From positions 325,965 to 389,964 of the forward strand of contig CAWGVH010000006.1 in NCBI GenBank assembly GCA_963825995.1: a stretch of DNA of 64,000 nt, in the 5' to 3' direction. Below, piece after piece: positions 7,356 to 60,278 of this stretch. The position numbers were made by a program, and so were the translations under genes. The notes below the pieces were generated by a model. That model was not told the DNA's origin. It ran no database searches and saw only the letters and a program-made list of their open reading frames with translations. Source of the DNA: an uncultured Chloroflexia bacterium (lineage in GTDB: Bacteria > Chloroflexota > Limnocylindria > Limnocylindrales > CSP1-4). The first letter of the stretch is position 1. Each line of letters begins with the position of its first letter.

Positions 7356-8258
7356 ATGACCCAGCAGCCCGACTCCATCGACGGTCTCCAGGAGGCCTTC
7401 CGCGAGCGCGACTACGTGGCCGACCGCTCGCTCGTCACGGCCGTCTTCCTGGGCCTGCAGCTGGGCAGGCCCCTGCTGCTCGAGGGCGAGGCCGGCGTGG
7501 GCAAGACCGAACTGGCCAAGGTCCTGGCGGCCACGCTCGGCGCCCGGCTCATCCGCCTGCAGTGTTACGAAGGCCTCGACATCAACACCGCGGTCTACGA
7601 GTGGAACTACCCGCGCCAGATGCTCGAGATCCGCCTCCTCGAGGCGCAGGGCAAGCTCGATGATGCACGTGTCCACGACATCTTCGACCAGCGCTTCCTC
7701 CTGAAGCGGCCCCTGCTGCAGGCGCTCGAGAGCCACGACGGCAGGCCCCAAGTGCTGCTCATCGACGAGATCGATCGCGCCGACGAGGAGTTCGAGGCCT
7801 TCCTGCTGGAGATCCTCTCCGACTTCTCCGTCACCATCCCGGAGATCGGGACCATCCACGCCGACCTGCCGCCACGGGTCATCCTGACCTCCAACCGAAC
7901 GCGCGAGGTCCATGATGCCCTCAAGCGCCGCTGTCTCTACCACTGGATCGACTACCCAGACGCGGCACGGGAGTATCAGATCGTGCTGGCCCGGGTGCCG
8001 GATACGCCGGCGCGGCTGGCGGCGGCCATCGTGGCCTTCGTGCAGCGCTTGCGCAGCGGGCAGCTGACCAAGGTGCCGGGCGTCGCTGAGACCATCGATT
8101 GGGCGGCCGCCCTGCTGGCGCTGGGCGCCGGGCGTCTCACCCCGGAGCTCGTGGATGAGACCCTTGGTGTCGTGCTCAAGTACGAGGAGGATGTGCGCGC
8201 CATCCGTGGCGCGACGGCTCGCGCCTACCTCGAGGAGACGGCGGCCGGGGCCGCCTGA
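7356..8258 (+). CDS. MoxR/CoxD-like AAA+ ATPase
   Basis: Walker A LLLEGEAGVGKTELAK, Walker B VLLIDEIDRADEE, sensor motifs. A TAGATT element sits about 6 nt upstream of the ATG, suggesting a leaderless transcript. Confidence 0.8.
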   Translation: MTQQPDSIDGLQEAFRERDYVADRSLVTAVFLGLQLGRPLLLEGEAGVGKTELAKVLAATLGARLIRLQCYEGLDINTAVYEWNYPRQMLEIRLLEAQGKLDDARVHDIFDQRFLLKRPLLQALESHDGRPQVLLIDEIDRADEEFEAFLLEILSDFSVTIPEIGTIHADLPPRVILTSNRTREVHDALKRRCLYHWIDYPDAAREYQIVLARVPDTPARLAAAIVAFVQRLRSGQLTKVPGVAETIDWAAALLALGAGRLTPELVDETLGVVLKYEEDVRAIRGATARAYLEETAAGAA

Positions 8259-8273
8259 GCCTGGCAGCGCGGC

Positions 8274-45669: not shown

Positions 45670-46917
45670 ATGTCCCGGCTCATCGTCCAGAAGTACGGCG
45701 GCTCCTCGCTCGCTGATGCCGAGCGCATCCGCCACGTGGCCGGGCGCATCGCACGTGACCGCCGCGCCGGCGCCGATCTCGTAGTGGTCGTCAGCGCCAT
45801 GGGCGACACGACCGACCATCTCCTTGAGTTGGCGGCCGCCATCACGGACGACCCCGACCCGCGCGAGATGGACCTCCTGCTGTCCACCGGTGAGCACATC
45901 AGCGGCACCCTGGTGGCCATGGCGCTCCATGCCGAGGGCGTCGAGGCCATCTCGCTGACCGGTCCCCAGGCCGGCATCCGCACGGACACCAGCCACGGTC
46001 GGGCCCGCATCGCCACCATCGAGCCGGCACGCCTGCGGGCCGAGATCGAGCGTGGCCGAGTCGTCATCGTGGCGGGCTTCCAGGGTTCCACGGACAGTAC
46101 CTTCGCCACCGGCGAGGTGACGACGCTGGGGCGGGGTGGCTCGGACACGACAGCGGTGGCGCTGGCCGCCCGCCTCAGGGCTGATGCCTGCGAGATCTAC
46201 ACCGACGTCGAGGGCATCTTCACCGCCGACCCGCGCGTCGTCAAGGATGCCCAGCTCATCCCCGTCATCGGCTACGAGGAGATGCTCGAGCTGGCCCACC
46301 AGGGCGCCCAGGTCATGCAGACGCGCGCCGTGGAGCTGGGCTGGGTGAACGAAGTCATCATCCGGGTGCGCTCCACGTTCAGCGACCACCCCGGCACCAG
46401 CATCCAGGAGGTATCCGCAGTGGAGCTGCGCGACAAGGTCCGCGCCATGGCGCTGGATCGCAAGGTGGCCAAGGTCACCCTCATCGGCGTCCCGGATCGG
46501 CCCGGCATCGCGCGGGCGATCTTCGGGCCCATGGCGGACCAGGGCCTCAACGTGGACATGATCGTCCAGAACGTCGGCCACGATGGCAGCACGGACCTCT
46601 CGTTCACGGTGGACCGCACCCACCTGGCACGCGCCGAGCGCCTTCTCGAGCTGCTCTCGAAGGACCTCGGCTTTGCCGCCATCGCCACGGACGCAGCCGT
46701 GGCCAAGATCTCCATCGTCGGAGAGGGAATCCACAACTCACCGGGCTACGCGGCCCAGATGTTCGGGGCACTCGCCGACGAGGGCATCAACATCAGCATG
46801 ATCTCGACCTCGGAGATCCGCATCACCTGCATCATCGCTGAGGACGAGCTGGACGCGGCCGCCCGCGCTGTGCACCGCACCTTCCGACTGCAGGAGCCCG
46901 AGACGCCGGACGCCTGA
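45670..46917 (+). CDS. lysC: aspartate kinase
   Basis: [11 protein letters not shown]; two C-terminal ACT domains. A TAGACT element lies about 7 nt upstream of the ATG, suggesting a leaderless transcript. Confidence 0.85.
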
Positions 46918-46927
46918 GCAGCCGCGC

Positions 46928-47752
46928 ATGGCCGGCTGGCGCGCTGACGGCGCGCACATACCAGCCATCGCCCGCCTGGAGCGATTCACCAGGGTCGCCT
47001 CCACGCAGGACGTCGTGCGCGCCTGGCTGGCCGAAGGCCAGGCGGAGATCTGCCTTGCCGTCGCCGACCAGCAGACGGCAGGGCGGGGCCGCCTGGGGCG
47101 CCGCTGGCTGGCGCCGTCGGGACGCGCGCTGCTGGTCTCGGCCGGCTTCCGGCCCCTTGACCTGCCGCTGGCGCAGGCCTGGCGGCTGCCGGCCGTGACC
47201 GCCATGGCCGTGTTGGACGCGGCCACGGCCCTGCTTCCGCCCGGAGCCGAGCGCCTGGCCCTCAAGTGGCCCAATGACATCGTGACCGTTCGGGAGGGGC
47301 GCCTGCGCAAGGTCGGGGGCGTGCTGGCCGAAACCGAGGCGGACGGCGAGCGCCTGATCAGCGTCGTCGTGGGTCTGGGCCTCAACGTGGACTGGCCGGC
47401 GACGGACTTCCCGCCCCATCTGGCGACCACGATGGGGAGCCTTCGCGAGGCCGGGGCTGGCGCCATCGATCGCGAGATCGTGCTGACGACCTGGCTGGCG
47501 CACCTGGCGCCGCTCTACGGGCAGCTCCGGGCCGGCCGCTTCGATGGCCAGCGATGGGCGGATGCGCAGGTGACCACCGCTGCCGACGTCACCGTCGAGA
47601 CGGGCGGCAGCCAGCTGCAGGGCAGGGCGGTCGGCGTCGACATCGAGAGCGGGGCATTGCTGGTGCTCGAGACGGCGAGCGGGGAGGTCCGCAGCGTGGG
47701 GGTCGGTGAGGTGGTGGCCTGCATCGTCGGCGGATCTGCCCGGCCCCTGTAA
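46928..47752 (+). CDS. birA: biotin--[acetyl-CoA-carboxylase] ligase (BPL catalytic domain)
   Basis: GRGRLGRRW signature; KWPNDI. Confidence 0.7.
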   Translation: MAGWRADGAHIPAIARLERFTRVASTQDVVRAWLAEGQAEICLAVADQQTAGRGRLGRRWLAPSGRALLVSAGFRPLDLPLAQAWRLPAVTAMAVLDAATALLPPGAERLALKWPNDIVTVREGRLRKVGGVLAETEADGERLISVVVGLGLNVDWPATDFPPHLATTMGSLREAGAGAIDREIVLTTWLAHLAPLYGQLRAGRFDGQRWADAQVTTAADVTVETGGSQLQGRAVGVDIESGALLVLETASGEVRSVGVGEVVACIVGGSARPL

Positions 47753-47768
47753 CGGCTAGACTGCCTCG

Positions 47769-48362
47769 GTGTTCTGGAAGGGGAGTGGGCGTGCTGAGGC
47801 TGCCACGGTCGTCGTCCCGTTCGACGTGGATCGGACGGCCGTCGAGGCCGCTCGGCACGACCCCGCCGCCTTCGAACCGCTGTACCGGAGATACGTGGCC
47901 CACATCTACTCACTCGCGTTCTACGAGATCCGTGACCCGCACCTCGCCGAGGACATCACCGAGCAGGTATTCCTCCGGGCGCTCGATGCGCTGCCCCGCT
48001 TCCGGGAGCAGGCTGAGGGCGAGGGAAGCACCTTCAAGGTCTGGCTCTACACGATCGCCAGGCATGTCGTGGCCAACGAGCGCCGCACGCGCCGCCGCCG
48101 CCCCGTGGAGGTCATCGACGCGGCCCTGGAGGTCCGCGCAGCGGACGACCCGGCTGCTACGGTCGTCGCGCGCCTGGAGGCCGAGCGGGCCTGGCAGGCC
48201 GTGATGGCGCTGCCCGACGAGCGTCGTCTGGCCCTTCAGCTGCGCATCGTCCACGAGCTCAGCGCTCGCGAGATCGGCCAGCTCATGGGCAAATCGGAGG
48301 GCGCCGTCCGCGTGCTCATCCACCGCGCCCTCGAATCGGTGCGCCGTCAGCTGGCCTCGTGA
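47769..48362 (+). CDS. ECF-type RNA polymerase sigma factor
   Basis: Region 2 (FEPLYRRYVAHIYSLAF) and region 4 (LSAREIGQLMGKSEGAVRVLIHRA). A TAGACT element lies about 6 nt upstream of the GTG. Confidence 0.8.
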   Translation: MFWKGSGRAEAATVVVPFDVDRTAVEAARHDPAAFEPLYRRYVAHIYSLAFYEIRDPHLAEDITEQVFLRALDALPRFREQAEGEGSTFKVWLYTIARHVVANERRTRRRRPVEVIDAALEVRAADDPAATVVARLEAERAWQAVMALPDERRLALQLRIVHELSAREIGQLMGKSEGAVRVLIHRALESVRRQLAS

Positions 48363-48792
48363 ACAGTCGGGGCGGAGCGGCCGCCGACCTCGACCTGGCC
48401 ATCGACGACCTGCTCACAGACCGCGATCGGCCCCTGCCCATGGAGACGGCGGACCTGCTGGCCACGGCACGGCTGCTGCACGATGCGCTGCCTCGCTACC
48501 ATCCCCGCTTCCGCTTCGAGGAGCACCTGGCGCAGCGTCTCACCGCCGCCCGTCGCCCGAGCCCCGATCCGCTCGCGCTCTCGAGGCGCCGGGCCCAGGC
48601 GGAGGATCCGGCGATACCCGTCATCCGGCTGCCGTACGGGGCGGCCTCCCAGACGGCCGCATCTTCGCCCCGCCGCCGCCGTGGCCTGCTGGCCGGTGGT
48701 GCCATCGCCTCAGGGGTCTCCCTGGCCATCCCCATCGCTGGAGCCGCGCTGCTGGCGTGGCGTCGTGGCCGAGCCGCCGGGGGAAGCCTCTA

Positions 48793-48793
<1 letters not shown>
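48359..48793 (+). CDS. putative membrane-anchored anti-sigma factor (no ZAS motif)
   Basis: GTGA overlap with the sigma gene. Single C-terminal TM helix GLLAGGAIASGVSLAIPIAGAALLAW. Confidence 0.45.
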
Positions 48794-50832
<2,039 letters not shown>

Positions 50833-50836
<4 letters not shown>

Positions 50837-51402
50837 CGGACGATGCGGCTCGGGGTGCTCCCGGCAACGTGGCGGTGGACCTGGCCATCGACCTCGACGC
50901 CCTGGTCGACGAGATCCTGCCGGCACTCGTCGCGCGGCTGCGGGCCAGCCGGCTGGCTGAGGTCGAGGTCCGTGACAGCGGCTGGCGGGTGCGGCTGCGC
51001 CGCGAGCTGCGGACAGCCCGGCGCCCGTCACGCGGCCACGCTGGCGACACGCTTGGACCGCAGAGTGACGACCAGGGAGCGAGCCAGACCCGGTCCCCGG
51101 CCGTGGGTTACTTCAGCCCGGCTCCCGCCCTCGTCGTGGGACACGCCGTGACCGCCGGGGACACCCTGGGCAGCGTCGACGTGCTGGGCATCGCACAGGA
51201 GGTCACGGCCCCCATCGGGGGCATCGTCAGCGCCGTCCTGGCCGAGATCGGCCAGGCCGTGGAGTACGGGCAGGTGCTCGTCGAGATCGACCCACTGGGC
51301 AGTGAAGCCGGCAACGACGATGACGTGGCGGCCGTCGATGGAGCCTCGGAAGAGCCGGTGCCTGGTGCCGCGGCCGCTTCGACGCCGGAGGCGGCGCGAT
51401 GA
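50833..51402 (+). CDS. BCCP-like biotinyl-domain protein lacking the biotinylation lysine (BADC-like)
   Basis: Aligns with the genuine accB (55296..55757) along its length, but the EAMKL motif is replaced by LGIAQE (Lys to Gln). GTGA and ATGA overlaps with the flanking genes. Confidence 0.65.
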
Positions 51403-52778
51403 TCGGTCGGGTCCTCATCGCCAACCGCGGCGAGATCGCGGTCCGGATCCTGCGGGCCTGTCGCGGCATGGGCATCGAGGCCGTCGTCGCCCACAGCGAG
51501 GCTGATCGTGAGTCGCGTGCCGTCCTCATGGCCGACGAGGCCATCTGCATCGGGCCGGCCGAGTCCTCGCGCTCCTACCTGTCCGCGGCGGCGGTCATCT
51601 CGGCGGCGCTGGTCAGCGGCTGCGACGCCATCCACCCGGGCTACGGCTTCCTCTCGGAGGACGATGCCTTCGCCGAGATGACGCGCGCCCACGACCTCGT
51701 CTTCATCGGCCCCTCCGCGGAGGTGCTGGAGCGCTTCGCCTCGAAGGCCGGTACGCGACAGCTGCTGGCGCAGCAAGGCCTGCCCGTGGTGCCCGGGTCG
51801 GAGGGCATGCTGCGGGATGACGACCACGCCCTCGCGGAGGCCGGGCGCATCGGGTACCCGTTGCTCATCAAGCCCTCGGCGGGTGGGGGTGGCAAGGGCA
51901 TGCGCCTGGCACGCACCGCGCGCGAGCTGCAGCAGGCGCTGACCGTGTGCCGATCCGAGGCACGGGCCGCCTTCGGGGACGACTCGCTGTACCTGGAGAA
52001 GTGGCTGGAACGCACCCGCCACGTGGAGGTGCAGGTCATCATCGACAACTACGGCCGGGGCGTGCACGTGGGCGAGCGCGACTGCTCGGTGCAGCGACGT
52101 CACCAGAAGATCGTCGAGGAGGCGCCCAGTCCGGCCATCGACGATGCCACGCGGATCGAGCTGGCCGAGTCGGCCGTTCGGGCTGCCCTGGCGGCGGGCT
52201 ACCGCAACGTGGGCACCCTGGAGTTCCTCGTCGACGGCGAGGGGCGCTACTTCTTCATCGAGATCAACGCCCGCATCCAGGTCGAGCACCCCATCACGGA
52301 GATGCTCTCCGGCATCGACATCGTGGCTGAGCAGATCCGCCTGGCGGCCGGAGAACCCCTCGGTTACGGGCAGGAGGCCGTGCGCCTGCGTGGCCACGCC
52401 ATCGAGTTCCGCATCAACGCCGAGGACGTGCGCGCCGACTTCCGGCCGCAGGTCGGGACCGTGGAGCACTATGTGCCGCCCGGCGGCGCCGGGGTCCGCA
52501 TGGAGACGCACCTCTACAGCGGTTACGAGGTCCCGCCGTACTACGATTCGCTCCTTGGAAAGCTGATCGTCTGGGGACCGGACCGGGAGAGCGCCGTGGC
52601 GCGCTCGCGGGTGGCCCTCAAGGAGCTGCTCGTGGATGGGCTGGAAACCAACATCCCGTTCCATCGGGCCATCCTCGAGGACCCCACGTTCCTCTCCGGT
52701 GGCTTCGACACGAATCTGCTCGACCGCAAGGGTGCCGCGGCCTTCCTGGACGCCGCGGCCGGCGCCGGCGAGGCCTGA
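51399..52778 (+). CDS. accC: biotin carboxylase
   Basis: RVLIANRGEIAVRI. ATP-grasp motifs. 459 aa. Confidence 0.9.
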   Translation: MIGRVLIANRGEIAVRILRACRGMGIEAVVAHSEADRESRAVLMADEAICIGPAESSRSYLSAAAVISAALVSGCDAIHPGYGFLSEDDAFAEMTRAHDLVFIGPSAEVLERFASKAGTRQLLAQQGLPVVPGSEGMLRDDDHALAEAGRIGYPLLIKPSAGGGGKGMRLARTARELQQALTVCRSEARAAFGDDSLYLEKWLERTRHVEVQVIIDNYGRGVHVGERDCSVQRRHQKIVEEAPSPAIDDATRIELAESAVRAALAAGYRNVGTLEFLVDGEGRYFFIEINARIQVEHPITEMLSGIDIVAEQIRLAAGEPLGYGQEAVRLRGHAIEFRINAEDVRADFRPQVGTVEHYVPPGGAGVRMETHLYSGYEVPPYYDSLLGKLIVWGPDRESAVARSRVALKELLVDGLETNIPFHRAILEDPTFLSGGFDTNLLDRKGAAAFLDAAAGAGEA

Positions 52779-52804
52779 GCTGGCCCAGATGTGAGAAGGA
52801 GACC

Positions 52805-53287
52805 ATGACAGACGCGCCGCCCGCCACCGAACAGACGACGGTGCTGCTCAGCACCGCCGAGCTGCAGCGGCTCATCCCGCACCGTTGGCCCTTCCTGCTC
52901 GTCGACCGCGTCCTCGAGGAGGACCGCGAGCGGGGCTACATCCGGGCCGAGAAGGCCGTCACCGCGGGCGAGTGGTTCTTCGGAGGCCACTTCCCGGGCC
53001 TGCCTGTCATGCCCGGCGTCCTGCAGGTGGAGGCCCTGGCGCAGACGATGGCCATCTACGTCGCCCGTAGCGAAGGGTTCGGCGATCGCATCGGCCTCTT
53101 CGCCGGCATCGACGAGTGTCGCTTCAAGCGCATCGTGCAACCGGGCGACCGCATGACCCTCGAGGTGACCATGGAGAAGCTGGGTCGCCGTTTCGGCAAG
53201 GGCCGCGCCGTGGCCTCGGTCGACGGTGAGGTCTGCTGCGAGGCGCGCATCTCCTTCGTCATCCCCCCGGCTGAGGCGCTCCGGTGA
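52805..53287 (+). CDS. fabZ: 3-hydroxyacyl-ACP dehydratase
   Basis: Hot-dog motif FGGHFPGLPVMPGVLQVEALAQ. Confidence 0.85.
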   Translation: MTDAPPATEQTTVLLSTAELQRLIPHRWPFLLVDRVLEEDRERGYIRAEKAVTAGEWFFGGHFPGLPVMPGVLQVEALAQTMAIYVARSEGFGDRIGLFAGIDECRFKRIVQPGDRMTLEVTMEKLGRRFGKGRAVASVDGEVCCEARISFVIPPAEALR

Positions 53288-54033
53288 GCGGCCTGCGTGT
53301 CGCGCTCCTCGCCGACATCCACGGCAACGCCCTGGCTCTCCAGGCGGCCCTGGCCGATATCGAGGCCCGGAAGCCGGATCGGTTGGCCATCCTTGGCGAC
53401 CTCGTGTTCAACGGTCCGCGTCCCGCGGAGGTGCTGAGTGCCGTCATGGAGCTGGATGCCGCCGGCGCCCTGGTCATCTCGGGCAACACGGACATCGCCG
53501 TCGCAGACGGCGACTTCACGGCCGCCTTCCCGTGGCTCGACGAGGTACCGGCGGGTCACCGCGCTGCCGCGGAGTGGGCTCGTGAGCAGCTCGATGCAGG
53601 GCAGCTGGAGTACCTGCGTCGCTTGCCTGCCGAGCGCCGCATCGCCGTCGGCGACCAGCTCGTCCTGGCCTGTCACGCCTCGCCGGGCAGCCAGACAGCG
53701 GGCCTGGCCGTCGATCTCGACGCGGCCGTGACGATGCAGTACGCCACGCGCACGGATGCGCGGGTCATCTGCTGTGGGCACACGCACGTGGCGGACGTCC
53801 GCGAGCTGGGCCGCAAGCTGCTGGTGAACCCGGGCTCCTGCGGCTATGCCTTCGACGGCACTCCCGACGCCTGCTGGGCGATGCTCACCGTGGCTGAGGC
53901 TGAGGAGCCGGAGGCCCAGCTGTATCGTGTCGCGTACGATGCGCAGACGGCGGCCGAAGAGGTCAGCCAGCGCGGTCTCCCGTCCGACGTCTACCGTGCC
54001 GCCACGATCCGCACCGGGAGATTCGTGCGATGA
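53284..54033 (+). CDS. calcineurin-like metallophosphoesterase (YfcE-like)
   Basis: LADIHGN, GDLV.NGP, GNTD, CGHTH metal-ligand blocks. GTGA and ATGA overlaps with fabZ and fabF. Confidence 0.7.
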   Translation: MSGLRVALLADIHGNALALQAALADIEARKPDRLAILGDLVFNGPRPAEVLSAVMELDAAGALVISGNTDIAVADGDFTAAFPWLDEVPAGHRAAAEWAREQLDAGQLEYLRRLPAERRIAVGDQLVLACHASPGSQTAGLAVDLDAAVTMQYATRTDARVICCGHTHVADVRELGRKLLVNPGSCGYAFDGTPDACWAMLTVAEAEEPEAQLYRVAYDAQTAAEEVSQRGLPSDVYRAATIRTGRFVR

Positions 54034-55299
54034 GCGATGTCGCCCGCGGGCGCCGCGTGGTCGTGACCGGGCTGGGAGCGGTCACGCCCCTGGGTAGCGG
54101 CGTGCCCGTGTACTGGCGGCGCCTCGTGGCCGGCGAGTCGGGTGTTCGCCCCATCACGCTGTTCGATGCCGATGGTCTGGGCAGCCGTATCGCCGGCGAG
54201 GTGCCCGACTTCGATTCCTCCGGGGTCCTCGACCGCAAGGAGGTACGGCGCAATGACCGCACCACGCAGTTGGCCCTGGTGGCCACGCGCGAAGCGCTCG
54301 ACGACGCCGGCCTGCCGGGCCGCCTAGAGGGCAGCCTGGCCGAGCAGACGGGCATCCTCATGTCGTCCGGCCTGGGCGGCACGGCCACCCTCATCGAGCA
54401 GATCGGCATCTCGCTCACGAGCGGTCTGACGCGTCTCAGTCCCTTCTTCATCCCCATGGTCATCGCCAACATGCCCTCCGGCGTGGCCGGCATCGTCTTC
54501 GGCGCCCTGGGTCCCAACTTCTCGACCACCAGCGCTTGCGCATCGTCGGGGCACGCCCTGGGCGAGGCCAGCGAGATCGATCCGGCGCGGCGACGCCGAC
54601 ATCATGGTCGCGGGGGGCTGCGAGGCCTCCGTGCAGGGCGCCACGGTGGGCGGCTTCGCGGCCATGCGTGCCCTCTCGACTCGCAACCACGAGCCCTCTG
54701 CGGCCAGCCGCCCCTTCGACGCTGCCCGCGACGGCTTCGTCGTGTCCGAAGGAGCCGCGGCGCTGGTCCTCGAGGGGTTGGACCACGCCATTCGGCGCGG
54801 CGTGCACATCTATGCCGAGGTCCGTGGCTACGGCGCCACAGCCGACGGCCACCACATCACCACGCCCTCACCGGGCGGGGCGGGTGCCGTACGGGCCGCA
54901 CGCCGGGCGCTGGTCAAGGCCGGCCTGGGAGCAGAGCGCATCGACCTCGTCAGCGCTCACGCCACCAGCACCGGCGAAGGTGACCCGACCGAACTGCTGG
55001 CCATCAACACACTGGTTGGCGACCATGCCCCGCAGGTCAGCGTGACCGCCACCAAGTCGTCCATCGGCCACACACTGGGCGCGGCCGGCGCCATCGCCGC
55101 CGTGGCTGTCGTGAAAGCGCTGGAGGAAGGCGTCGTGCCTCCCACCCTGAACCTGGTGGATCCCGACGAGCGCGCCGGCGCACTGGACCTCACGCCGCTC
55201 CGGGCACGCCGTCGCGACCTGGACGTGGCCCTTTTGAACTCTTTCGGCTTCGGCGGTCAGAACGCGGCCATCGTGCTGCAGCGCTGGGCCGACGGATGA
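54030..55299 (+). pseudogene. fabF: 3-oxoacyl-ACP synthase II (fabF) split by an apparent 1-nt frameshift near 54580
   Basis: N part in ORF 54030..54983 (active-site Cys in TTSACASSGHALGEA). C part in ORF 54604..55299 (DADIMVAGGCEA, HATSTGEGD, GHTLGAAG). The two parts are in different frames. Removing one base in GAGATCGATCCGG restores EIIRRGDADIM. Probably an assembly indel, since fabF is normally essential. Confidence 0.75.
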
Positions 55300-55757
55300 G
55301 CCGATCCGCCGAGGTCGCTCGTCTCGTCGCCCTCATCGACCGCCTGGAGGCGCTGCTGGAGCGTTCGGGGCTCTCCGAGCTCGAGGTAGAGGTCGCGGGC
55401 ACGAGCGTGACCCTGCGCACGCCGGCCGCACTGGCGCCATACGCCGCCGCCGTTACCGTCGGCGAATCCCCGAGCGAGCCAGCACCACCGCCCGAAGAGC
55501 CGGCCCGGCCCCGGGGCTCGCACGCCATCGTGGCGCCTCTGACCGGGGTCTTCTACCGCTCGCCGTCACCCGGCGCCGAGCCCTACGTCCGGGAGAGCGG
55601 CCCGGTCAATGCCGGGCAGGTCATCGGCCTCATCGAGGCCATGAAGCTGTTCAACGAGATCAAGAGCGACGTCACCGGCACCGTCCGCCACCTCGCCGTC
55701 GGTGACGGCGACCTGGTCAAGGCGCGCCAGACGCTCATCGAGGTGGATCCGGCATGA
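55296..55757 (+). CDS. accB: biotin carboxyl carrier protein
   Basis: Biotinylation motif IEAMKLFNEI. ATGA overlaps on both sides. Confidence 0.85.
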   Translation: MSRSAEVARLVALIDRLEALLERSGLSELEVEVAGTSVTLRTPAALAPYAAAVTVGESPSEPAPPPEEPARPRGSHAIVAPLTGVFYRSPSPGAEPYVRESGPVNAGQVIGLIEAMKLFNEIKSDVTGTVRHLAVGDGDLVKARQTLIEVDPA

Positions 55758-56968
55758 GTGGCCCGGGCTCCTACACGGCCGGCGCGCCGGCCAGCGTGCG
55801 CATCAGCGGCTGGGGCTCCTACGTGCCTGAGCGCGTCCTCTCCAACACGGACCTCGAGCGCATCGTGGACACCTCGGATGAGTGGATCCGCACGCGCACG
55901 GGCATCAGCCAGCGGCGCGTGGCGGCCCCGCATGAGACGACGGCCACCCTGGGCGCCATCGCAGCCAAGCGCGCCGTGGCCGTGGCCGGCCTGTCGCCCG
56001 ACGACATCGACGTCATCATGGTGGCCACGCTGACGCCGGACTACCCCATGCCCTCGACTGCCGTCCTCGTCAAGGAGGCCATCGGGAACAGCACGGCGGC
56101 CGCCTTCGACGTCGCCGCGGCCTGTTCCGGCTTCGTCTACGGCTACGCCGCGGCTGACGCCTTCGTCCGCAGCGGCATGGCCCGCCACGTGCTGGTCATC
56201 GGCGCGGAGCTGCTGACGCGCTTCATCGACTTCTCAGACCGCACCACCTGCATCCTCTTCGGTGACGGGGCCGGAGCGGTCGTGCTCTCCGCCTCTGAGG
56301 AGGGCGGGGGAGGGCTGGCCGGCCTGGAGATGACGACCGACCCGGACGGTGCCTACATGATCTGGCTGCCCTCGGGCGGCTCACGCAGCCCGTCGAGCAT
56401 GGAGACGGCCAGGCGCGGGGAGCACTTCATCCGGATGGAGGGCCGCGAGACCTACCGCTACGCCACGCGGACCCTGGCGGCCTCGGCCCTGGCAGCGATC
56501 GCCAAGGCCGGCTGGGAGCCGGAAGAGGTGGACCTCTTCATCCCGCACCAGGCCAACATCCGCATCATCGAGGCCGTGGCCCGGGGCCTGGGCCTGCCCA
56601 TGGAGAAGATGGTCGTCAACATCGACCGCTACGGCAACACCTCGGCAGCCTCCGTGGGCATCGCCCTCGACGAGGCTGTCCGCGGTGGCCGCGTCAAGCC
56701 GGGCGACAAGCTCGTCCTCTTCGCCTTTGGGGCCGGCTTCACCAGTGGTGCTGCGGCCATCACCTGGACCGCCGACCCCGCCAACTCCGCGCGCAGCGAC
56801 GATGTCAAGCCGGTGGCCAGCGTGCGGGCGCCGCTCGACTGGGCCTCGGTCGATCCCATGCCACCCCGCCTGGCTGCCGTGCTGGCCGCTCCGGGTGGGC
56901 CGCCGGTCCCGCTCGACGACGTCATCCCGGGCGACCCCGCGCCGGCGCAGCCAGAGGAGGAGGCATGA
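55754..56968 (+). CDS. fabH: 3-oxoacyl-ACP synthase III with ~70 aa Pro/Ala-rich C-terminal extension
   Basis: Cys AAACSGF, His HQANIRII, Asn GNTSAAS. Confidence 0.85.
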   Translation: MSGPGSYTAGAPASVRISGWGSYVPERVLSNTDLERIVDTSDEWIRTRTGISQRRVAAPHETTATLGAIAAKRAVAVAGLSPDDIDVIMVATLTPDYPMPSTAVLVKEAIGNSTAAAFDVAAACSGFVYGYAAADAFVRSGMARHVLVIGAELLTRFIDFSDRTTCILFGDGAGAVVLSASEEGGGGLAGLEMTTDPDGAYMIWLPSGGSRSPSSMETARRGEHFIRMEGRETYRYATRTLAASALAAIAKAGWEPEEVDLFIPHQANIRIIEAVARGLGLPMEKMVVNIDRYGNTSAASVGIALDEAVRGGRVKPGDKLVLFAFGAGFTSGAAAITWTADPANSARSDDVKPVASVRAPLDWASVDPMPPRLAAVLAAPGGPPVPLDDVIPGDPAPAQPEEEA

Positions 56969-57714
56969 TCGATCTGTCGGGCAAGAGTGCCGTGGTCACG
57001 GGTGGTTCGCGTGGCATCGGCCGTGCCATCGCGTTGCGGCTGGCCGAGCAGGGCGCTGACGTGTGCATCAGCTACCACGGCAAGCACGAGGCCGCCGCCG
57101 GCGTGGTGGCGGCCATCGAAGCCACGGGCCGCCGAGGACTGGCCGTGCAGGCCGATGCCGCTGAGCAGGCCTCGGCGAGCGCGCTCATCGAGGCCGCGGC
57201 GGCGGCCTTCGGGCGCATCGACATCCTCGTCAACAACGCGGGCATCACGCGCGACGACCTCATCATGCGCATGAAGCCCGAGGACTGGTCGGACGTCATC
57301 GCCACCAACCTGTCGGGCGCCTTCTTCGCCATCAAGGCCGTCACGCGCCCCATGCTCAAGGCGCGGAGCGGTCGCATCATCAACATCACCAGCGTCTCCG
57401 GGCAGGCCGGCCAGATGGGCCAGGCGAACTACTCGTCGGCCAAGGCCGGGCTCATCGGTCTCACCAAGGCCACGGCCCGGGAGCTCGCCAGTCGCGGCAT
57501 CACCTGCAACGCCGTGGCACCGGGCTTCATCGAGACGGAGCTGACCTCGGGCTTGGCCCAGGAGTTGCTCGACGAGCTGAAGGCGCGCACGCCCCTGGGG
57601 CGTTTCGGTGCACCGGAGGAGATCGCCGACGCGGTCGCCTTCCTCGCCTCAGACGAAGCCGCGTTCATCACGGGCCAGGTGCTCGCCGTCGACGGCGGCC
57701 TGGTGATGATGTAG
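56965..57714 (+). CDS. fabG: 3-oxoacyl-ACP reductase
   Basis: TGGSRGIGRAIA, NNAG, YSSAKAG (YxxxK). Confidence 0.85.
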   Translation: MIDLSGKSAVVTGGSRGIGRAIALRLAEQGADVCISYHGKHEAAAGVVAAIEATGRRGLAVQADAAEQASASALIEAAAAAFGRIDILVNNAGITRDDLIMRMKPEDWSDVIATNLSGAFFAIKAVTRPMLKARSGRIINITSVSGQAGQMGQANYSSAKAGLIGLTKATARELASRGITCNAVAPGFIETELTSGLAQELLDELKARTPLGRFGAPEEIADAVAFLASDEAAFITGQVLAVDGGLVMM

Positions 57715-57739
57715 GCGACTTGGAGTACCGTTCGGCCTG

Positions 57740-58855
57740 ATGGGACGCCTCGCGGGTAGCTCGCGCCTCGCTCCGCTGTTGCTGTCGATGCTCCTCTTCG
57801 GGAGCGTGTCGCCGGTCGCGGCCATGTCGCCAGGGCTGGTACAGGACGAGGACGGACTGCGCATCGCCCTTGATTCGATGCGCCAGTTGGCCACGGACTC
57901 CCGCTCCAACCAGGGGCAGCGCACGACGACCACGCCGCGCCGCGGGCTACCTGTCCAGCTGGGCAAGGATGGCCGCCTGACCGTGCTCCTCGTCGGATCG
58001 GACTGGCGTCCCGACTCCGGGGGTGAGCGCCTCGACGTGCTCATGGTGGCCACCATCGACCCCACGACGGGTGAGGCGGCACTGGTGAGCATCCCGCGTG
58101 ACATGTCCGGCATCCCGCTCGCCGACGGCAGCAACAGCGGCGGCACGCGGGTCAATTCCATCTACTACCTGCGCTACCGCGACCCGACCCTCTCGCATGC
58201 GGCCCTCGATCGCGATGGACTGAAGAAGTTCAGCAAGGACATCGGCACTCTGCTCGGCACAGAGATCGACTACTGGGCACTGACGCGCTTCGGCACCTTC
58301 GCCAATCTCGTCAACACCTTGGGCGGCGTGCGCGTGGACGTGGAAGAGGAGGTGCTGGACACCTCATACCACCACGGCAGCTCACGTGGCGTGTGGTTCC
58401 CCGTGCAGGACGACTACACGCTCAAGGGCGACCCCAAGTGCAAGCCCAAGCCGAAGAAATGCCACTCAGCGCTCGTCTACGCTCGTTCGCGCCACGGCAC
58501 CATGGGCACCGAGTACAACAGCGACTACCGCCGCGCTGAGCGACAGCAGGACATCGTGCGCTCCGCCATCAAGGCGGTCATCGACGATCGCGGTGCCGGC
58601 GTAGCCTTGCTGGGCACCCTCCTGCGCGTCCGTGACCTCGTCGAGACCAACATCCCCAAGACGGTCGAGTCGGCCGGCCAGCTCTATGCCCTGCTCGAGA
58701 AGGTGAAGCTGCCCGAGACGAACATGAAGGTCCTGGCGCCGGCGACCTGGGCCGGCGCGGCCGGCGACGGCAGCATCAAGCCCGACCTCCCGGCCATCCG
58801 CGACTGGGTGGACAAGCACTTCGCCAGGGTTTCGGCCAAGCGCCCTCGAGACTGA
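57740..58855 (+). CDS. LytR-CpsA-Psr (LCP) family cell-envelope glycopolymer transferase
   Basis: N-terminal TM segment. LLVGSDWR...RLDVLMVATIDP...VSIPRD core. Confidence 0.75.
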   Translation: MGRLAGSSRLAPLLLSMLLFGSVSPVAAMSPGLVQDEDGLRIALDSMRQLATDSRSNQGQRTTTTPRRGLPVQLGKDGRLTVLLVGSDWRPDSGGERLDVLMVATIDPTTGEAALVSIPRDMSGIPLADGSNSGGTRVNSIYYLRYRDPTLSHAALDRDGLKKFSKDIGTLLGTEIDYWALTRFGTFANLVNTLGGVRVDVEEEVLDTSYHHGSSRGVWFPVQDDYTLKGDPKCKPKPKKCHSALVYARSRHGTMGTEYNSDYRRAERQQDIVRSAIKAVIDDRGAGVALLGTLLRVRDLVETNIPKTVESAGQLYALLEKVKLPETNMKVLAPATWAGAAGDGSIKPDLPAIRDWVDKHFARVSAKRPRD

Positions 58856-58935
58856 CGCCCCGGGGAGACTGACGCCCCGGTGAGACTGGCCCCGCGAGGT
58901 TGACATCTGGTGGAGACAGTGGCGACGGACCGCGC
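58847..58935. repeat. imperfect tandem direct repeats of ~17 nt (GAGACTGACGCCCCGGx) x2 perfect plus 3 degenerate copies
   Basis: Read directly. The first copy contains the LCP stop codon. Lies in the intergenic region upstream of the GGDEF gene. Confidence 0.45.
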
Positions 58936-58988
58936 CTCGGGTCGGCCGGGGCCTCGCGCGCCAACGCGGCCTGTGCCATCCTCGCATC

Positions 58989-60278
58989 GTGACCGAATCG
59001 ACCAGCAGCCCGGACGGCGAGCCGGGCAGCCGCGAACTGCAGATGGCCCCCGAGACGCTCACGGATGGGCAGCTCGGGCGCCGGCTCGAGCGGGCGCGTT
59101 TGGTGCTCGTGGGCAGCCTGGCCGGCCTCGCCATACTCTGCACCTGGCTGCTCGTGGACGGCGGGATCGCGCCCATCGACGTGCTCCTGGCCCTCGGTCT
59201 CCTGGCACTGGCCCTGGCGCTCTACGCCATGTCCGTGACTTCGGCGTCCCTGACCAGGAACCGCCTCGAGCGCGAGGCCGCCATGCGCCGCATCGTCTCC
59301 GGCCTCTCGCGATCGCTCTCGCCCGAGGCCGTCGTCGACACGGTCATCTCCGACCTGCGGGCCGCCACAGATGCCGATCACGTGGTCGTGGCGCGGGTGC
59401 GCCAGCCTGACGGGCACGTGGAGGTCACCCTGGTCGCCGCACGGGCAGATGCTCCGCCGTCCCGGACGACGCTGCGTCCCGAGCTGGAGGCTCGCAGCAC
59501 CAAGCTTGCCGGCGAACTCGACGAGGGTGTCGGCGAGAGCGCAGGAGGTCCCGGCGATGAGGCGGTTGCGGCAGCCGAGGAGATCGCGCGCCGCGTGCGC
59601 TCTGCCTACGGGCTGCCTCACACGCTGGCCACGCCCCTGGTGTCCGAGCGGCGCTTCCTTGGGGCGCTGCTGCTGGCGCGACGCAGCCGCGGTGCCTGGA
59701 GCGAGGGCGACCGTCGGCTCCTGAGCTGGGCTGCCGTCGAAGTGGCCACGGCCTTCACCCGCGCCTATGCCCTCGAGGCTGCCGAACGTGGCGCCAAGAT
59801 CGACGTGCTGACTGGCCTGCCCAACCGCCGATACTTCGACGAAGCCCTGGACATGGAGCGGCCTCGCCGTCGCACCGACGACACCCTGGGCATCCTCATG
59901 ATCGACATCGACCACTTCAAGATCCTCAACGATCGCTTCGGCCACGCCACCGGTGACCGCGTACTGCGGGCCGTGGCGGACGCCATCGGCCGGACCGTGC
60001 GCACCGAGGACACACCGGCCCGCTACGGTGGCGAGGAGTTCGCGGTGCTCCTGCGGCGGACGTCGGGCGAGCAGGCCGTCGAGGTCGGCGAACGCATCCG
60101 ACGTGCCGTGGTGCAGCTCCATCCGGCCAGCCTCGGCATCGACAAGCCGGTCACGGTCTCGGTCGGGGTCGCTGTGGCCGCTCCCGACCAGGCTGCCAGC
60201 CCACGCCTCGTGGAGCGTGCCGATCAGGCGCTCTACCGCGCCAAGCGGCAGGGTCGGGACCGCGTCGTGGCTGCCTGA
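58989..60278 (+). CDS. membrane-anchored GAF-GGDEF diguanylate cyclase
   Basis: Two N-terminal TM helices, GAF-like middle region, GGDEF motif RYGGEEF and DHFKILND. Confidence 0.8.
   Translation: MTESTSSPDGEPGSRELQMAPETLTDGQLGRRLERARLVLVGSLAGLAILCTWLLVDGGIAPIDVLLALGLLALALALYAMSVTSASLTRNRLEREAAMRRIVSGLSRSLSPEAVVDTVISDLRAATDADHVVVARVRQPDGHVEVTLVAARADAPPSRTTLRPELEARSTKLAGELDEGVGESAGGPGDEAVAAAEEIARRVRSAYGLPHTLATPLVSERRFLGALLLARRSRGAWSEGDRRLLSWAAVEVATAFTRAYALEAAERGAKIDVLTGLPNRRYFDEALDMERPRRRTDDTLGILMIDIDHFKILNDRFGHATGDRVLRAVADAIGRTVRTEDTPARYGGEEFAVLLRRTSGEQAVEVGERIRRAVVQLHPASLGIDKPVTVSVGVAVAAPDQAASPRLVERADQALYRAKRQGRDRVVAA

What the first reader, a model, noticed from the sequence alone, without database searches (positions are those of the whole stretch)
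50833..51402. Lysine-less BCCP paralog (BADC-like) embedded between accA and accC
The 189-aa product aligns along its length with the genuine AccB encoded 4.5 kb downstream, including the N-terminal helical part and the biotinyl/lipoyl beta-sandwich. The biotin-accepting Lys of the EAMKM motif is replaced by Gln (VLGIAQEV), so the protein cannot be biotinylated. It is translationally coupled to accA (GTGA) and accC (ATGA). Plant BADC proteins are non-biotinylatable BCCP look-alikes that negatively regulate ACCase. A bacterial analogue inside the acc operon would be a notable regulatory feature.
Basis: partly seen in the sequence, partly recalled or inferred. Interest (0 to 1): 0.6.

Follow-up and report, generated by a model that had tools for sequence, protein, structure and literature searches.

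The report
Lysine-free BCCP look-alike in bacterial ACC operon
A soil/freshwater Chloroflexota bacterium encodes, between accA and accC, a conserved copy of the biotin carrier protein that cannot carry biotin. This suggests its acetyl-CoA carboxylase has a fifth, non-catalytic subunit like the BADC proteins known so far only from plants and algae.

Summary
The ORF at 50833..51402 (+, 189 aa) is real. It has the full BCCP architecture: N-terminal helix plus beta-hairpin, disordered linker, and a confidently modelled biotinyl-type beta-sandwich.

It cannot be biotinylated. The protein contains no lysine at all. The BCCP 'thumb' loop is shortened by six residues.

This is not a sequencing error. 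All 120 close homologues, and 147 of the 150 best cluster representatives at 50% identity, have Gly at that site.

Every syntenic locus in Chloroflexota/Candidatus Limnocylindrales MAGs keeps the order accD-accA-X-accC. Where the flank reaches far enough, a canonical accB (EAMKL) lies between fabF and fabH. X is under purifying selection (dN/dS 0.28-0.47).

Two further lysine-less BCCP-like families turned up, mostly next to accC or in the ancestral accB position: K->G in Armatimonadota and K->R in other Chloroflexota.

Most likely X is a non-catalytic ACC subunit. It would join the BC/BCCP subcomplex through its hairpin and tune assembly or activity. No bacterial counterpart of BADC appears in the literature I could search. 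The function is inferred, not shown.

The parts
50833..51402 (+). X: lysine-free BCCP paralogue ('pseudo-BCCP'), 189 aa. GTG start; the stop overlaps the accC start.
   Evidence: ORF list and sequence. Pfam Biotin_lipoyl above gathering score. BCCP is the best NCBIfam model but scores far below its cut-off, 41 vs 115 bits. 326 homologues. 128 cluster representatives at E<=1e-30.
50819..50826 (+). Shine-Dalgarno-like GAGGAGAG, about 7 nt upstream of the GTG start of X and inside the 3' end of accA.
   Evidence: Read directly from the sequence.
50893..51003 (+). N-terminal module of X (residues 21-57): helix 21-39 and beta-hairpin 43-48/51-56. It is Arg-rich (ARLRASRLAEVEVRDSGWRVRLRR) and the most conserved part of the family.
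   Evidence: AlphaFold2 secondary structure, pLDDT about 80-87. Invariant columns L29-R57. Weak HMM alignment to E. coli BCCP residues 29-85.
51004..51093 (+). Disordered, variable linker (residues 58-87).
   Evidence: pLDDT below 50. Length and sequence vary among homologues.
51094..51297 (+). Biotinyl-type beta-sandwich domain (residues 88-155) with a shortened thumb loop.
   Evidence: pLDDT about 95. Foldseek hits: E. coli BCCP 1bdo (40% identity) and 4hr7. 2+4 residue deletion relative to the E. coli thumb.
51184..51189 (+). Hairpin tip Leu118-Gly119 (CTG GGC), the position of the Met-Lys(biotin) of canonical BCCP.
   Evidence: Alignments. The model places the turn between strands 111-117 and 120-125. 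Gly is essentially invariant in the family.
51298..51399 (+). Disordered acidic C-terminal tail (residues 156-189, net charge -7).
   Evidence: Variable in homologues.
48757..49713 (+). accD (carboxyltransferase beta). The start may be the in-frame GTG at 48793.
   Evidence: Pfam Carboxyl_trans and Zn_ribbon_ACC. Sequence.
49688..50836 (+). accA (carboxyltransferase alpha). The probable ATG at 49688 overlaps the end of accD. The mechanical ORF starts at 49442.
   Evidence: Pfam ACCA, E=9e-114. Sequence.
51399..52778 (+). accC (biotin carboxylase). Its start overlaps the stop of X.
   Evidence: Pfam Biotin_carb_N, CPSase_L_D2 and Biotin_carb_C.
55296..55757 (+). Canonical accB (BCCP) with thumb and EAMKL motif, between fabF and fabH.
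   Evidence: Pfam E=1e-13. TIGR00531 98 bits. Orthologues with IGLIEAMKLFNEIKSD in L002, L004, L005, L006, L008, L009 and L012.
46928..47752 (+). birA: biotin-protein ligase without a Pfam DNA-binding (HTH) domain hit, at the head of the conserved cluster.
   Evidence: Pfam BPL_LplA_LipB and BPL_C. Synteny.

Best explanation
X is a functional, non-biotinylatable paralogue of the biotin carboxyl carrier protein: a 'pseudo-BCCP'. It most likely acts as a fifth, non-catalytic subunit or partner of the multi-subunit acetyl-CoA carboxylase.

Shown:
- X keeps the BCCP architecture.
- It has Gly in place of the biotinyl-Lys, no Lys at all, and a truncated thumb.
- It is made from the same tightly coupled operon as accD, accA, accC and a genuine accB.
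- It has been inherited with them and is under purifying selection.

Inferred:
- Its strongly conserved N-terminal helix and beta-hairpin do what that hairpin does in a BC-BCCP fusion protein: join the eight-stranded hairpin barrel that bridges two biotin carboxylase dimers. Mixed AccC/AccB/X subcomplexes would result.
- Because X cannot carry carboxybiotin, it would either scaffold the BC-BCCP subcomplex or occupy carrier positions and so set the number of active carriers per complex.
- Translational coupling to accA and accC implies a fixed stoichiometry. That favours a constitutive structural or tuning subunit over a conditionally expressed inhibitor.

The confidence of 0.6 is for the whole statement, including association with ACC. 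That X is a conserved, lysine-free BCCP paralogue I hold at above 0.9.
For: Identity as a BCCP-type protein.

Loss of the biotin site:
- Lys->Gly at the hairpin tip, with no other Lys in X.
- 203 of 229 family members have no Lys in the C-terminal domain. Where a Lys occurs it is scattered.

Not an error; a deep family:
- 120/120 homologues have Gly.
- 147/150 of the best 50%-identity cluster representatives have Gly; 128 representatives score E<=1e-30.

Synteny:
- accD-accA-X-accC in all 13 Chloroflexota/Limnocylindrales loci and in distant members L084-L086.
- Genuine accB with EAMK in the same operon wherever the flank allows.

Selection and inheritance:
- dN/dS is 0.34, 0.47 and 0.28 against L001, L002 and L004, and 0.26 for the C-terminal domain.
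- The X clade (bootstrap 99) and the AccB clade (100) have congruent branching orders.

N-terminal module:
- It holds most of the invariant columns.
- It is predicted as helix plus beta-hairpin.
- In Chloroflexus aurantiacus BC1, four BCCP hairpins form a beta-barrel that joins two BC dimers and is needed for full BC activity (PMC11077971).

Precedent: plant BADCs are lysine-less BCCP homologues that bind BC and are stoichiometric ACC components (PMC13585458; PMC11926652; PMC12706156).
Against: - There is no experimental or co-folding evidence that X binds AccC, AccB or the carboxyltransferase.
- X evolves faster than every neighbouring gene: dN/dS is 2-5 times higher, and identity to L002 is 69% against 95% for AccC. 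Part of the protein is therefore under relaxed constraint.
- The hairpin tip and the surrounding 'VDVLG' motif are almost invariant. A purely passive placeholder would not need that, so the tip may bind something specific that I cannot name.
- The thumb is lost. In plants it is the thumb of BCCP that BADC appears to contact (PMC11926652), so the details cannot simply be carried over.
- The direction of the effect (activation, scaffolding or inhibition) is undetermined.
Confidence: 0.6

Rival explanations
1. X works outside the ACC catalytic complex as a regulator that uses BCCP mimicry. Three versions are possible. (a) A permanent 'apo-BCCP' decoy for the biotin ligase BirA encoded at the head of the same cluster. 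(b) An adaptor for a BCCP-binding signal protein such as PII. (c) An autoregulator of operon expression acting through its Arg-rich N-terminal module, as the N-terminal part of E. coli AccB autoregulates accBC (my own recollection of James and Cronan 2004, not checked here).
For: - birA is part of the conserved cluster.
- The hairpin-tip motif VDVLG is under strong constraint although it cannot accept biotin.
- The N-terminal module carries eight Arg.
- PII binds both BCCP and BADC in Arabidopsis (PMC12706156).
Against: - BirA shows no Pfam DNA-binding (HTH) domain hit. There is thus no evidence for the E. coli-type link between apo-BCCP level and transcription.
- Net charge of the N-terminal module is 0.
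- No nucleic-acid-binding fold was found.
- The tight coupling is to accA and accC, not to birA.
Confidence: 0.15
2. X is an evolutionary relic of the ancestral accB that stood upstream of accC. It lost its lysine after a second accB took over and is kept only because its reading frame carries the translational coupling between accA and accC.
For: - X occupies the classical accB position directly upstream of accC.
- It evolves faster than its neighbours.
- The K->R family in other Chloroflexota sits in what looks like a leftover of the ancestral accB position, between pepP and xseA, without accC.
Against: - dN/dS is well below 1.
- 44 invariant columns across members down to 51% identity, including both folded modules.
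- The family has at least 128 clusters at 50% identity with the same motif.
- The fold is predicted with pLDDT about 95.
- A mere coupling spacer would not conserve a beta-sandwich and an essentially invariant Gly.
Confidence: 0.07
3. X is a carrier domain of another complex (lipoyl protein, GcvH-like, decarboxylase gamma subunit) or a HlyD-type barrel-sandwich protein, and is not related to ACC.
For: Sub-threshold hits to Biotin_lipoyl_2, HlyD_3, GCV_H and E2 lipoyl domains.
Against: - There is no Lys to carry lipoate or biotin.
- The best profile and structure matches are ACC-type BCCP.
- The BCCP-type N-terminal module is present.
- X is invariably flanked by accA and accC.
- At 189 aa there is no room for the coiled-coil and beta-barrel domains of membrane-fusion proteins.
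Confidence: 0.03
4. The missing lysine is a sequencing or assembly artefact of this window.
For: The window does contain at least one probable 1-bp error or real frameshift, in fabF near 54578.
Against: - The codon is GGC, three changes from AAG.
- The Gly is present in every relative from independent assemblies.
- The thumb deletion and the absence of any Lys are independent of this one codon.
Confidence: 0.01

Closest known systems
Plant and green-algal BADC proteins (biotin attachment domain-containing; Arabidopsis BADC1-3, Chlamydomonas Cre01.g037850)
   Same: - Homologue of BCCP with a structured biotinyl-type domain plus disordered regions.
- Lacks the biotinyl-Lys, so is non-catalytic.
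- Co-exists with genuine BCCP in an organism with a multi-subunit ACC (PMC12706156, PMC13585458, PMC11926652).
   Different: - Bacterial, and encoded inside the acc/fab operon between accA and accC with overlapping start and stop codons.
- K->G at an otherwise conserved hairpin tip; thumb shortened.
- Forms its own clade in Chloroflexota. It was not compared with BADC sequences, and common descent is unlikely.
- Binding to BC and any effect on activity, both shown for BADC, are untested for X.
Canonical bacterial BCCP (AccB; E. coli 1bdo/4hr7; TIGR00531)
   Same: - Same three-part architecture: N-terminal helix and hairpin, flexible linker, C-terminal beta-sandwich.
- 40% identity to the E. 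coli biotinyl domain.
- Same position directly upstream of accC.
- Shares the SPxVGxF and GQxVEYGQxL motifs.
   Different: - No biotinyl-Lys (EAMK -> DVLG) and no Lys at all.
- Six-residue thumb deletion.
- Scores 41 bits against a 115-bit cut-off for TIGR00531.
- Arg-rich N-terminal module and acidic tail.
BCCP hairpin barrel of Chloroflexus aurantiacus BC1 (PMC11077971)
   Same: An N-terminal BCCP beta-hairpin, predicted in X at residues 43-56. This is the element that tetramerises BC in that enzyme.
   Different: - In BC1 the BCCP is fused to BC and is biotinylated.
- X is a free-standing, lysine-free protein.
- Whether X joins such a barrel is an inference.
Other lysine-less BCCP look-alikes found here
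   Same: - Armatimonadota family ('ALGIAN', K->G, thumbless), found upstream of a small ORF, then accC and nusB.
- P0289 ('VEALG'), directly upstream of a BC gene.
- A Chloroflexota K->R family ('VEVLRMPHPVEAP').
   Different: - These are separate clades: X 99% and Armatimonadota 97% bootstrap. A union of all lysine-less proteins gets only 38%.
- The contexts differ.
- The K->R family keeps the thumb length and is not next to accC.

Membership tests
BCCP / AccB (PF00364 biotinyl domain; NCBIfam TIGR00531) | Biotinyl/lipoyl-type flattened beta-sandwich domain | tested here: met
   Pfam 28.3 bits against a 22.1 gathering score. AlphaFold2 domain 88-155 with pLDDT about 95. Foldseek hits 1bdo and 4hr7, probability 1.00, 39-40% identity.
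BCCP / AccB (PF00364 biotinyl domain; NCBIfam TIGR00531) | Biotin-accepting Lys in the (A/V)MKM motif at the hairpin tip | tested here: not met
   The Lys column is Gly119. The protein has no Lys. Gly is essentially invariant in the family.
BCCP / AccB (PF00364 biotinyl domain; NCBIfam TIGR00531) | 'Thumb' loop typical of ACC-type BCCPs | tested here: not met
   2+4 residue gaps against E. coli 'FYRTPSPDAKAFIEVG'. 4-residue gap against the window's own AccB.
BCCP / AccB (PF00364 biotinyl domain; NCBIfam TIGR00531) | N-terminal helix and beta-hairpin module plus flexible linker | tested here: met
   Helix 21-39 and strands 43-48/51-56, then a disordered stretch 57-87. Weak HMM alignment to E. 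coli BCCP 29-85.
BCCP / AccB (PF00364 biotinyl domain; NCBIfam TIGR00531) | Score above the curated equivalog cut-off | tested here: not met
   TIGR00531: 41.3 bits against a 115.2 cut-off. The window's AccB scores 98.2 bits on TIGR00531, also below that cut-off, but passes the short BCCP model NF005457 (91.5 vs 87).
Plant/algal BADC | BCCP homologue lacking the biotinylation Lys or motif | tested here: met
   Definition taken from PMC12706156 and PMC13585458.
Plant/algal BADC | Binds biotin carboxylase and is found in the ACC complex | not testable with these tools
   Only context is available: translational coupling to accA and accC and conserved synteny.
Plant/algal BADC | Alters ACC activity or assembly | not testable with these tools
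   Needs reconstitution.
Plant/algal BADC | Common descent with the plant/algal BADC clade | not tested
   No BADC sequence was available. The BADC origin papers (Salie 2016, Conrado 2024) are not held, and afdb50 was unavailable. X forms a clade of Chloroflexota sequences.
Lipoyl carrier domains (E2, GcvH) | Lipoyl-Lys at the hairpin tip; association with 2-oxoacid dehydrogenase or glycine-cleavage genes | tested here: not met
   No Lys. Only sub-threshold hits. The neighbours are acc and fab genes.
HlyD / membrane-fusion barrel-sandwich proteins | Barrel-sandwich hybrid combined with coiled-coil and beta-barrel domains | tested here: not met
   Only about 32-residue sub-threshold matches. 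The model shows no such domains.

The most novel reading that the evidence does not exclude
In a whole class of Chloroflexota (Limnocylindria-like), the bacterial multi-subunit acetyl-CoA carboxylase is obligatorily a five-component enzyme. The genuine AccB works together with a dedicated lysine-free, thumbless pseudo-BCCP, which is needed to build or set the activity of the BC-BCCP subcomplex. Armatimonadota and other Chloroflexota would have reached the same solution independently. This would be a prokaryotic, convergent counterpart of plant BADC, showing that 'dead carrier' subunits are a recurrent way to organise or throttle biotin carboxylases.
Probability: 0.45. Interest if true: 0.75.

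Novelty: new variant of a known kind. Interest (0 to 1): 0.6.

Why it matters
Bacterial ACC is the textbook four-gene enzyme (accA, accB, accC, accD). It is also the reference model used to interpret the plant plastid enzyme. Non-catalytic BCCP look-alikes are treated in the literature I could search as a plant and algal feature.

A large, conserved bacterial family of such proteins, hard-wired into the acc/fab operon, would do three things:
- It would give a simple operon-encoded system for testing what a dead carrier does to a BC-BCCP complex, scaffold or brake. That question is still disputed for BADC.
- It would show that the solution arose more than once.
- It would correct a systematic annotation error. 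These proteins are labelled 'biotin carboxyl carrier protein' in public annotations, which can mislead metabolic reconstructions of abundant soil and freshwater Chloroflexota.

Tried and rejected
- Sequencing error: rejected.
- Recent duplication of the co-resident accB: no support. X+AccB is monophyletic in 0 of 100 bootstraps, and C-domain identity X-AccB is 25% against 34% for X versus other BCCPs. The tree is neighbour-joining on 137 columns, and the outgroup BCCPs were pre-selected by the GQAVEYGQ pattern, so the origin stays unresolved.
- A single origin for all lysine-less families: unresolved (38% bootstrap).
- Other biotinyl-domain genes in the window: none besides X and accB. This used an HMM built from the X/BCCP alignment, run against all six-frame ORFs of at least 50 aa.
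- Promoter and terminator scan of 46500-59500: uninformative. It found 0 promoters and 1 terminator-like site inside accC, no more than chance.
- Literature: Salie 2016, Conrado 2024 and Ye 2020 are not held. Full-text searches for bacterial lysine-less BCCPs returned only plant papers. 'Not described in bacteria' therefore means not found in the held library.
- afdb50 fold search: not available.
- First bootstrap run: timed out and was redone.
- Taxonomic range: the one genome-contig scan used only the patterns GQAVEYGQ and [VI]LPALIARLR and kept 80 loci. The range found is therefore a lower bound. MAG labels such as Anaerolineaceae and Methylomirabilota may be unreliable.
- Multimer prediction: not possible with the tools.

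Full report
**1. The observation**

- Its GTG start overlaps the accA stop (GTGA). Its TGA stop overlaps the accC ATG (ATGA). A GAGGAGAG Shine-Dalgarno-like stretch lies 7 nt upstream.
- BLASTP against the window's own AccB (55296..55757, 'IEAMKLFNE') gives 27% identity over 147 of 153 residues, E=2e-5 for that single comparison.
- Pfam Biotin_lipoyl is matched above the gathering score, 28.3 vs 22.1 bits.
- The best NCBIfam model is BCCP TIGR00531, at 41 bits against a 115-bit cut-off. The true AccB scores 98 bits on that model.
- A family profile finds E. coli BCCP (4hr7_B) at E=4e-13.

The similarity is therefore real and not chance.

**2. The correction**

BLASTP, MAFFT and HMMER against E. 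coli BCCP all put it at Gly119, aligning V-D-V-L-G with I-E-A-M-K.
- In the AlphaFold2 model the hairpin turn lies between strands 111-117 and 120-125, so the tip is Leu118-Gly119.
- The codon is GGC (51187-51189), three changes from AAG. The proposed one-base error does not apply.
- X contains no lysine at all.
- The region matching the E. coli 'thumb' (FYRTPSPDAKAF) is six residues shorter in X. It is four residues shorter than in the window's AccB.

**3. Anatomy**

The AlphaFold2 model was built on a 22-sequence alignment (mean pLDDT 71). It gives the following parts:
- a disordered N-terminus (residues 1-16);
- a helix (21-39) and a beta-hairpin (43-48/51-56), pLDDT 80-87;
- a disordered linker (57-87);
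- a beta-sandwich (88-155), pLDDT about 95;
- a disordered acidic tail (net charge -7).

Foldseek against the PDB returns biotinyl domains only. E. coli BCCP 1bdo and 4hr7 are the closest by sequence, at 39-40% identity. This is the canonical three-part BCCP layout.

**4. A family, not a one-off**
- The word-indexed search found 326 clusters (at 90% identity) at E<=1e-3. The 120 listed all carry Gly at the Lys column.
- The exhaustive profile search of 1.84 billion cluster representatives at 50% identity found 128 at E<=1e-30.
- Of the best 150, 147 show [DEN][VMCL]LG. Two are fragments that miss the site, and one (P0262, 546 aa) is a different protein.
- 203 of 229 members have no Lys anywhere in the C-terminal domain. 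The few Lys that occur are scattered.
- The alignment has 44 invariant columns. They are concentrated in the N-terminal module (LPALxARLR...LxExExR...WxxRLRR) and in SPAVGYF, GDxLGxxDxLG and GxAVEYGQ.

**5. Context and taxonomy**

The genome scan returned 13 loci encoding family members. All come from MAGs labelled Chloroflexota, 'Chloroflexia', Candidatus Limnocylindrales or similar. L001 is 86% identical to X, with neighbouring genes 95-99% identical.
- Every locus has the same order, as far as the contig reaches: birA, ECF sigma, anti-sigma, accD, accA, X, accC, fabZ, metallophosphoesterase, fabF, accB, fabH, fabG, LCP. Every one has VD[VM]LG.
- Wherever the flank is long enough (L002, L004, L005, L006, L008, L009, L012), a genuine accB with IGLIEAMKLFNEIKSD lies between fabF and fabH.
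- Distant representatives also sit between accA and accC. In L086 the upstream gene is a 646-aa ORF with two carboxyltransferase-domain stretches plus ACCA, probably a fused AccD-AccA.
- In the window, nearly every junction of the operon is a 4-nt start/stop overlap.
- No other biotinyl-domain ORF exists in the 64 kb.

**6. Selection and history**
- Nei-Gojobori dN/dS for X is 0.34, 0.47 and 0.28 against L001, L002 and L004, and 0.26 for the C-terminal domain. This is clear purifying selection.
- It is 2-5 times more relaxed than accC (0.06-0.10) or accB (0.15).
- In a neighbour-joining tree (137 columns, 100 bootstraps) X is monophyletic (99) and the Limnocylindria AccB is monophyletic (100). 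Their internal branching orders agree, which indicates co-inheritance.
- X and the resident AccB are never sisters (0/100). The origin of X is unresolved; the tree is short and the outgroup is biased.

**7. Other lysine-less lineages**

These were found in passing:
- An Armatimonadota family with 'ALGIAN[DE]' (K->G, also thumbless). It stands upstream of a small ORF with no Pfam match, then accC, nusB and folD.
- P0289 ('VEALG'), directly upstream of a BC gene.
- A K->R family ('VEVLR[MIL]PHPVEAP') in other Chloroflexota MAGs, between pepP and xseA-xseB, with the thumb length kept and no adjacent accC.

From my own knowledge, not checked here, Bacillus has the order pepP-like, efp, accB, accC, nusB, folD, xseA, xseB. 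That suggests these genes occupy the ancestral accB slot. Dead BCCPs are thus recurrent in these phyla.

**8. How it most likely works**

Shown: X is a folded, conserved, BCCP-shaped protein that cannot carry biotin. It is produced together with all four ACC subunits.

Inferred: X binds biotin carboxylase through its N-terminal hairpin.
- In C. aurantiacus BC1, four BCCP hairpins interlock into an eight-stranded barrel. The barrel bridges two BC dimers and is needed for full BC activity (PMC11077971).
- X and AccB both have such a hairpin, so mixed barrels are plausible.
- X would then act as a structural subunit, or as a placeholder that limits the number of active carriers.
- Plant BADCs are the precedent. 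They were first described as inhibitors. They are now also viewed as a 'glue' or 'cap' that assembles BC-BCCP, and they are stoichiometric with the other subunits (PMC11926652; PMC12706156; PMC13585458; PMC11889953).
- Translational coupling favours a constitutive, fixed-ratio role.

Unexplained: why the VDVLG tip is almost invariant.

**9. Rivals**
- A BirA, PII or operon-expression regulator that uses BCCP mimicry: confidence 0.15.
- A relic kept only as a translational-coupling spacer: 0.07. The conservation argues against it.
- A carrier of another complex: 0.03. There is no Lys, and the context is ACC.
- An artefact: 0.01.

**10. Novelty**

Full-text searches found lysine-less BCCP homologues described only for plants and algae. 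Public annotations call these bacterial proteins 'biotin carboxyl carrier protein' or 'biotin/lipoyl-containing protein'. I rate X as a new variant of a known kind: it works like a BADC in principle, but membership in the BADC clade was not tested and is unlikely. Interest is 0.6.

Noticed in passing
window 54030..55299 (near 54578): fabF carries a 1-bp insertion ('GAGATCGATCC' against 'GAGATC-ATCC' in L001, L002, L004 and L005). It splits the gene into overlapping ORFs 54030..54983 and 54604..55299. This is either an assembly or sequencing error or a strain-specific pseudogene.
   Followed up: partly
window 46928..58855: A 12-kb cluster is syntenic across all related loci: birA, ECF sigma, anti-sigma, accD, accA, X, accC, fabZ, metallophosphoesterase, fabF, accB, fabH, fabG, LCP. 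Almost every junction is a 4-nt start/stop overlap. An ECF sigma/anti-sigma pair heading a fatty-acid initiation operon is unusual.
   Followed up: partly
window 53284..54033: A calcineurin-like metallophosphoesterase (Metallophos_2, E=3e-22) is conserved between fabZ and fabF in every related locus and is translationally coupled on both sides. Its role in a fab/acc operon is unexplained.
   Followed up: no
L036 7803..8210; L081 8001..8402: A second lysine-less, thumbless BCCP-like family occurs in Armatimonadota ('ALGIAN[DE]', K->G; P0270-P0281). It is followed by a small 125-132 aa ORF with no Pfam match, then accC, nusB and folD. No genuine accB was seen within the flanks.
   Followed up: partly
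L018 about 7770..8264; L087 9001..9558: A third lysine-less family has K->R ('VEVLR[MIL]PHPVEAP', P0299-P0312) in other Chloroflexota MAGs. Its conserved context is topA, pepP (M24), this gene, xseA, xseB. The thumb length is kept and accC is not adjacent.
   Followed up: partly
L082 400..840: P0289 is another BCCP-like protein with 'VEALGMRT' (K->G), directly upstream of a biotin carboxylase gene on short metagenome contigs. It does not cluster with the other families.
   Followed up: no
L006, L010, L011, L013 (X orthologues): A subgroup of X proteins has a much longer linker with a conserved His/Gly-rich segment 'SR[AS]QPGHAGHGHxP[AG][GS]FEGHRS'. This might be a metal-binding or interaction motif.
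   Followed up: no
L086 1..1941: In one distant relative, the gene upstream of X is a single 646-aa ORF with two Carboxyl_trans stretches plus ACCA. It is probably a fused AccD-AccA carboxyltransferase.
   Followed up: no
window 55296..55757 and orthologues: The genuine AccB of this lineage is itself atypical at its C-terminus: 'G(D/S)LVKAKQPLIEV' instead of the common 'GQxVEYGQPL', a motif that X retains. It falls below the TIGR00531 cut-off (98 vs 115 bits) but passes NF005457.
   Followed up: no
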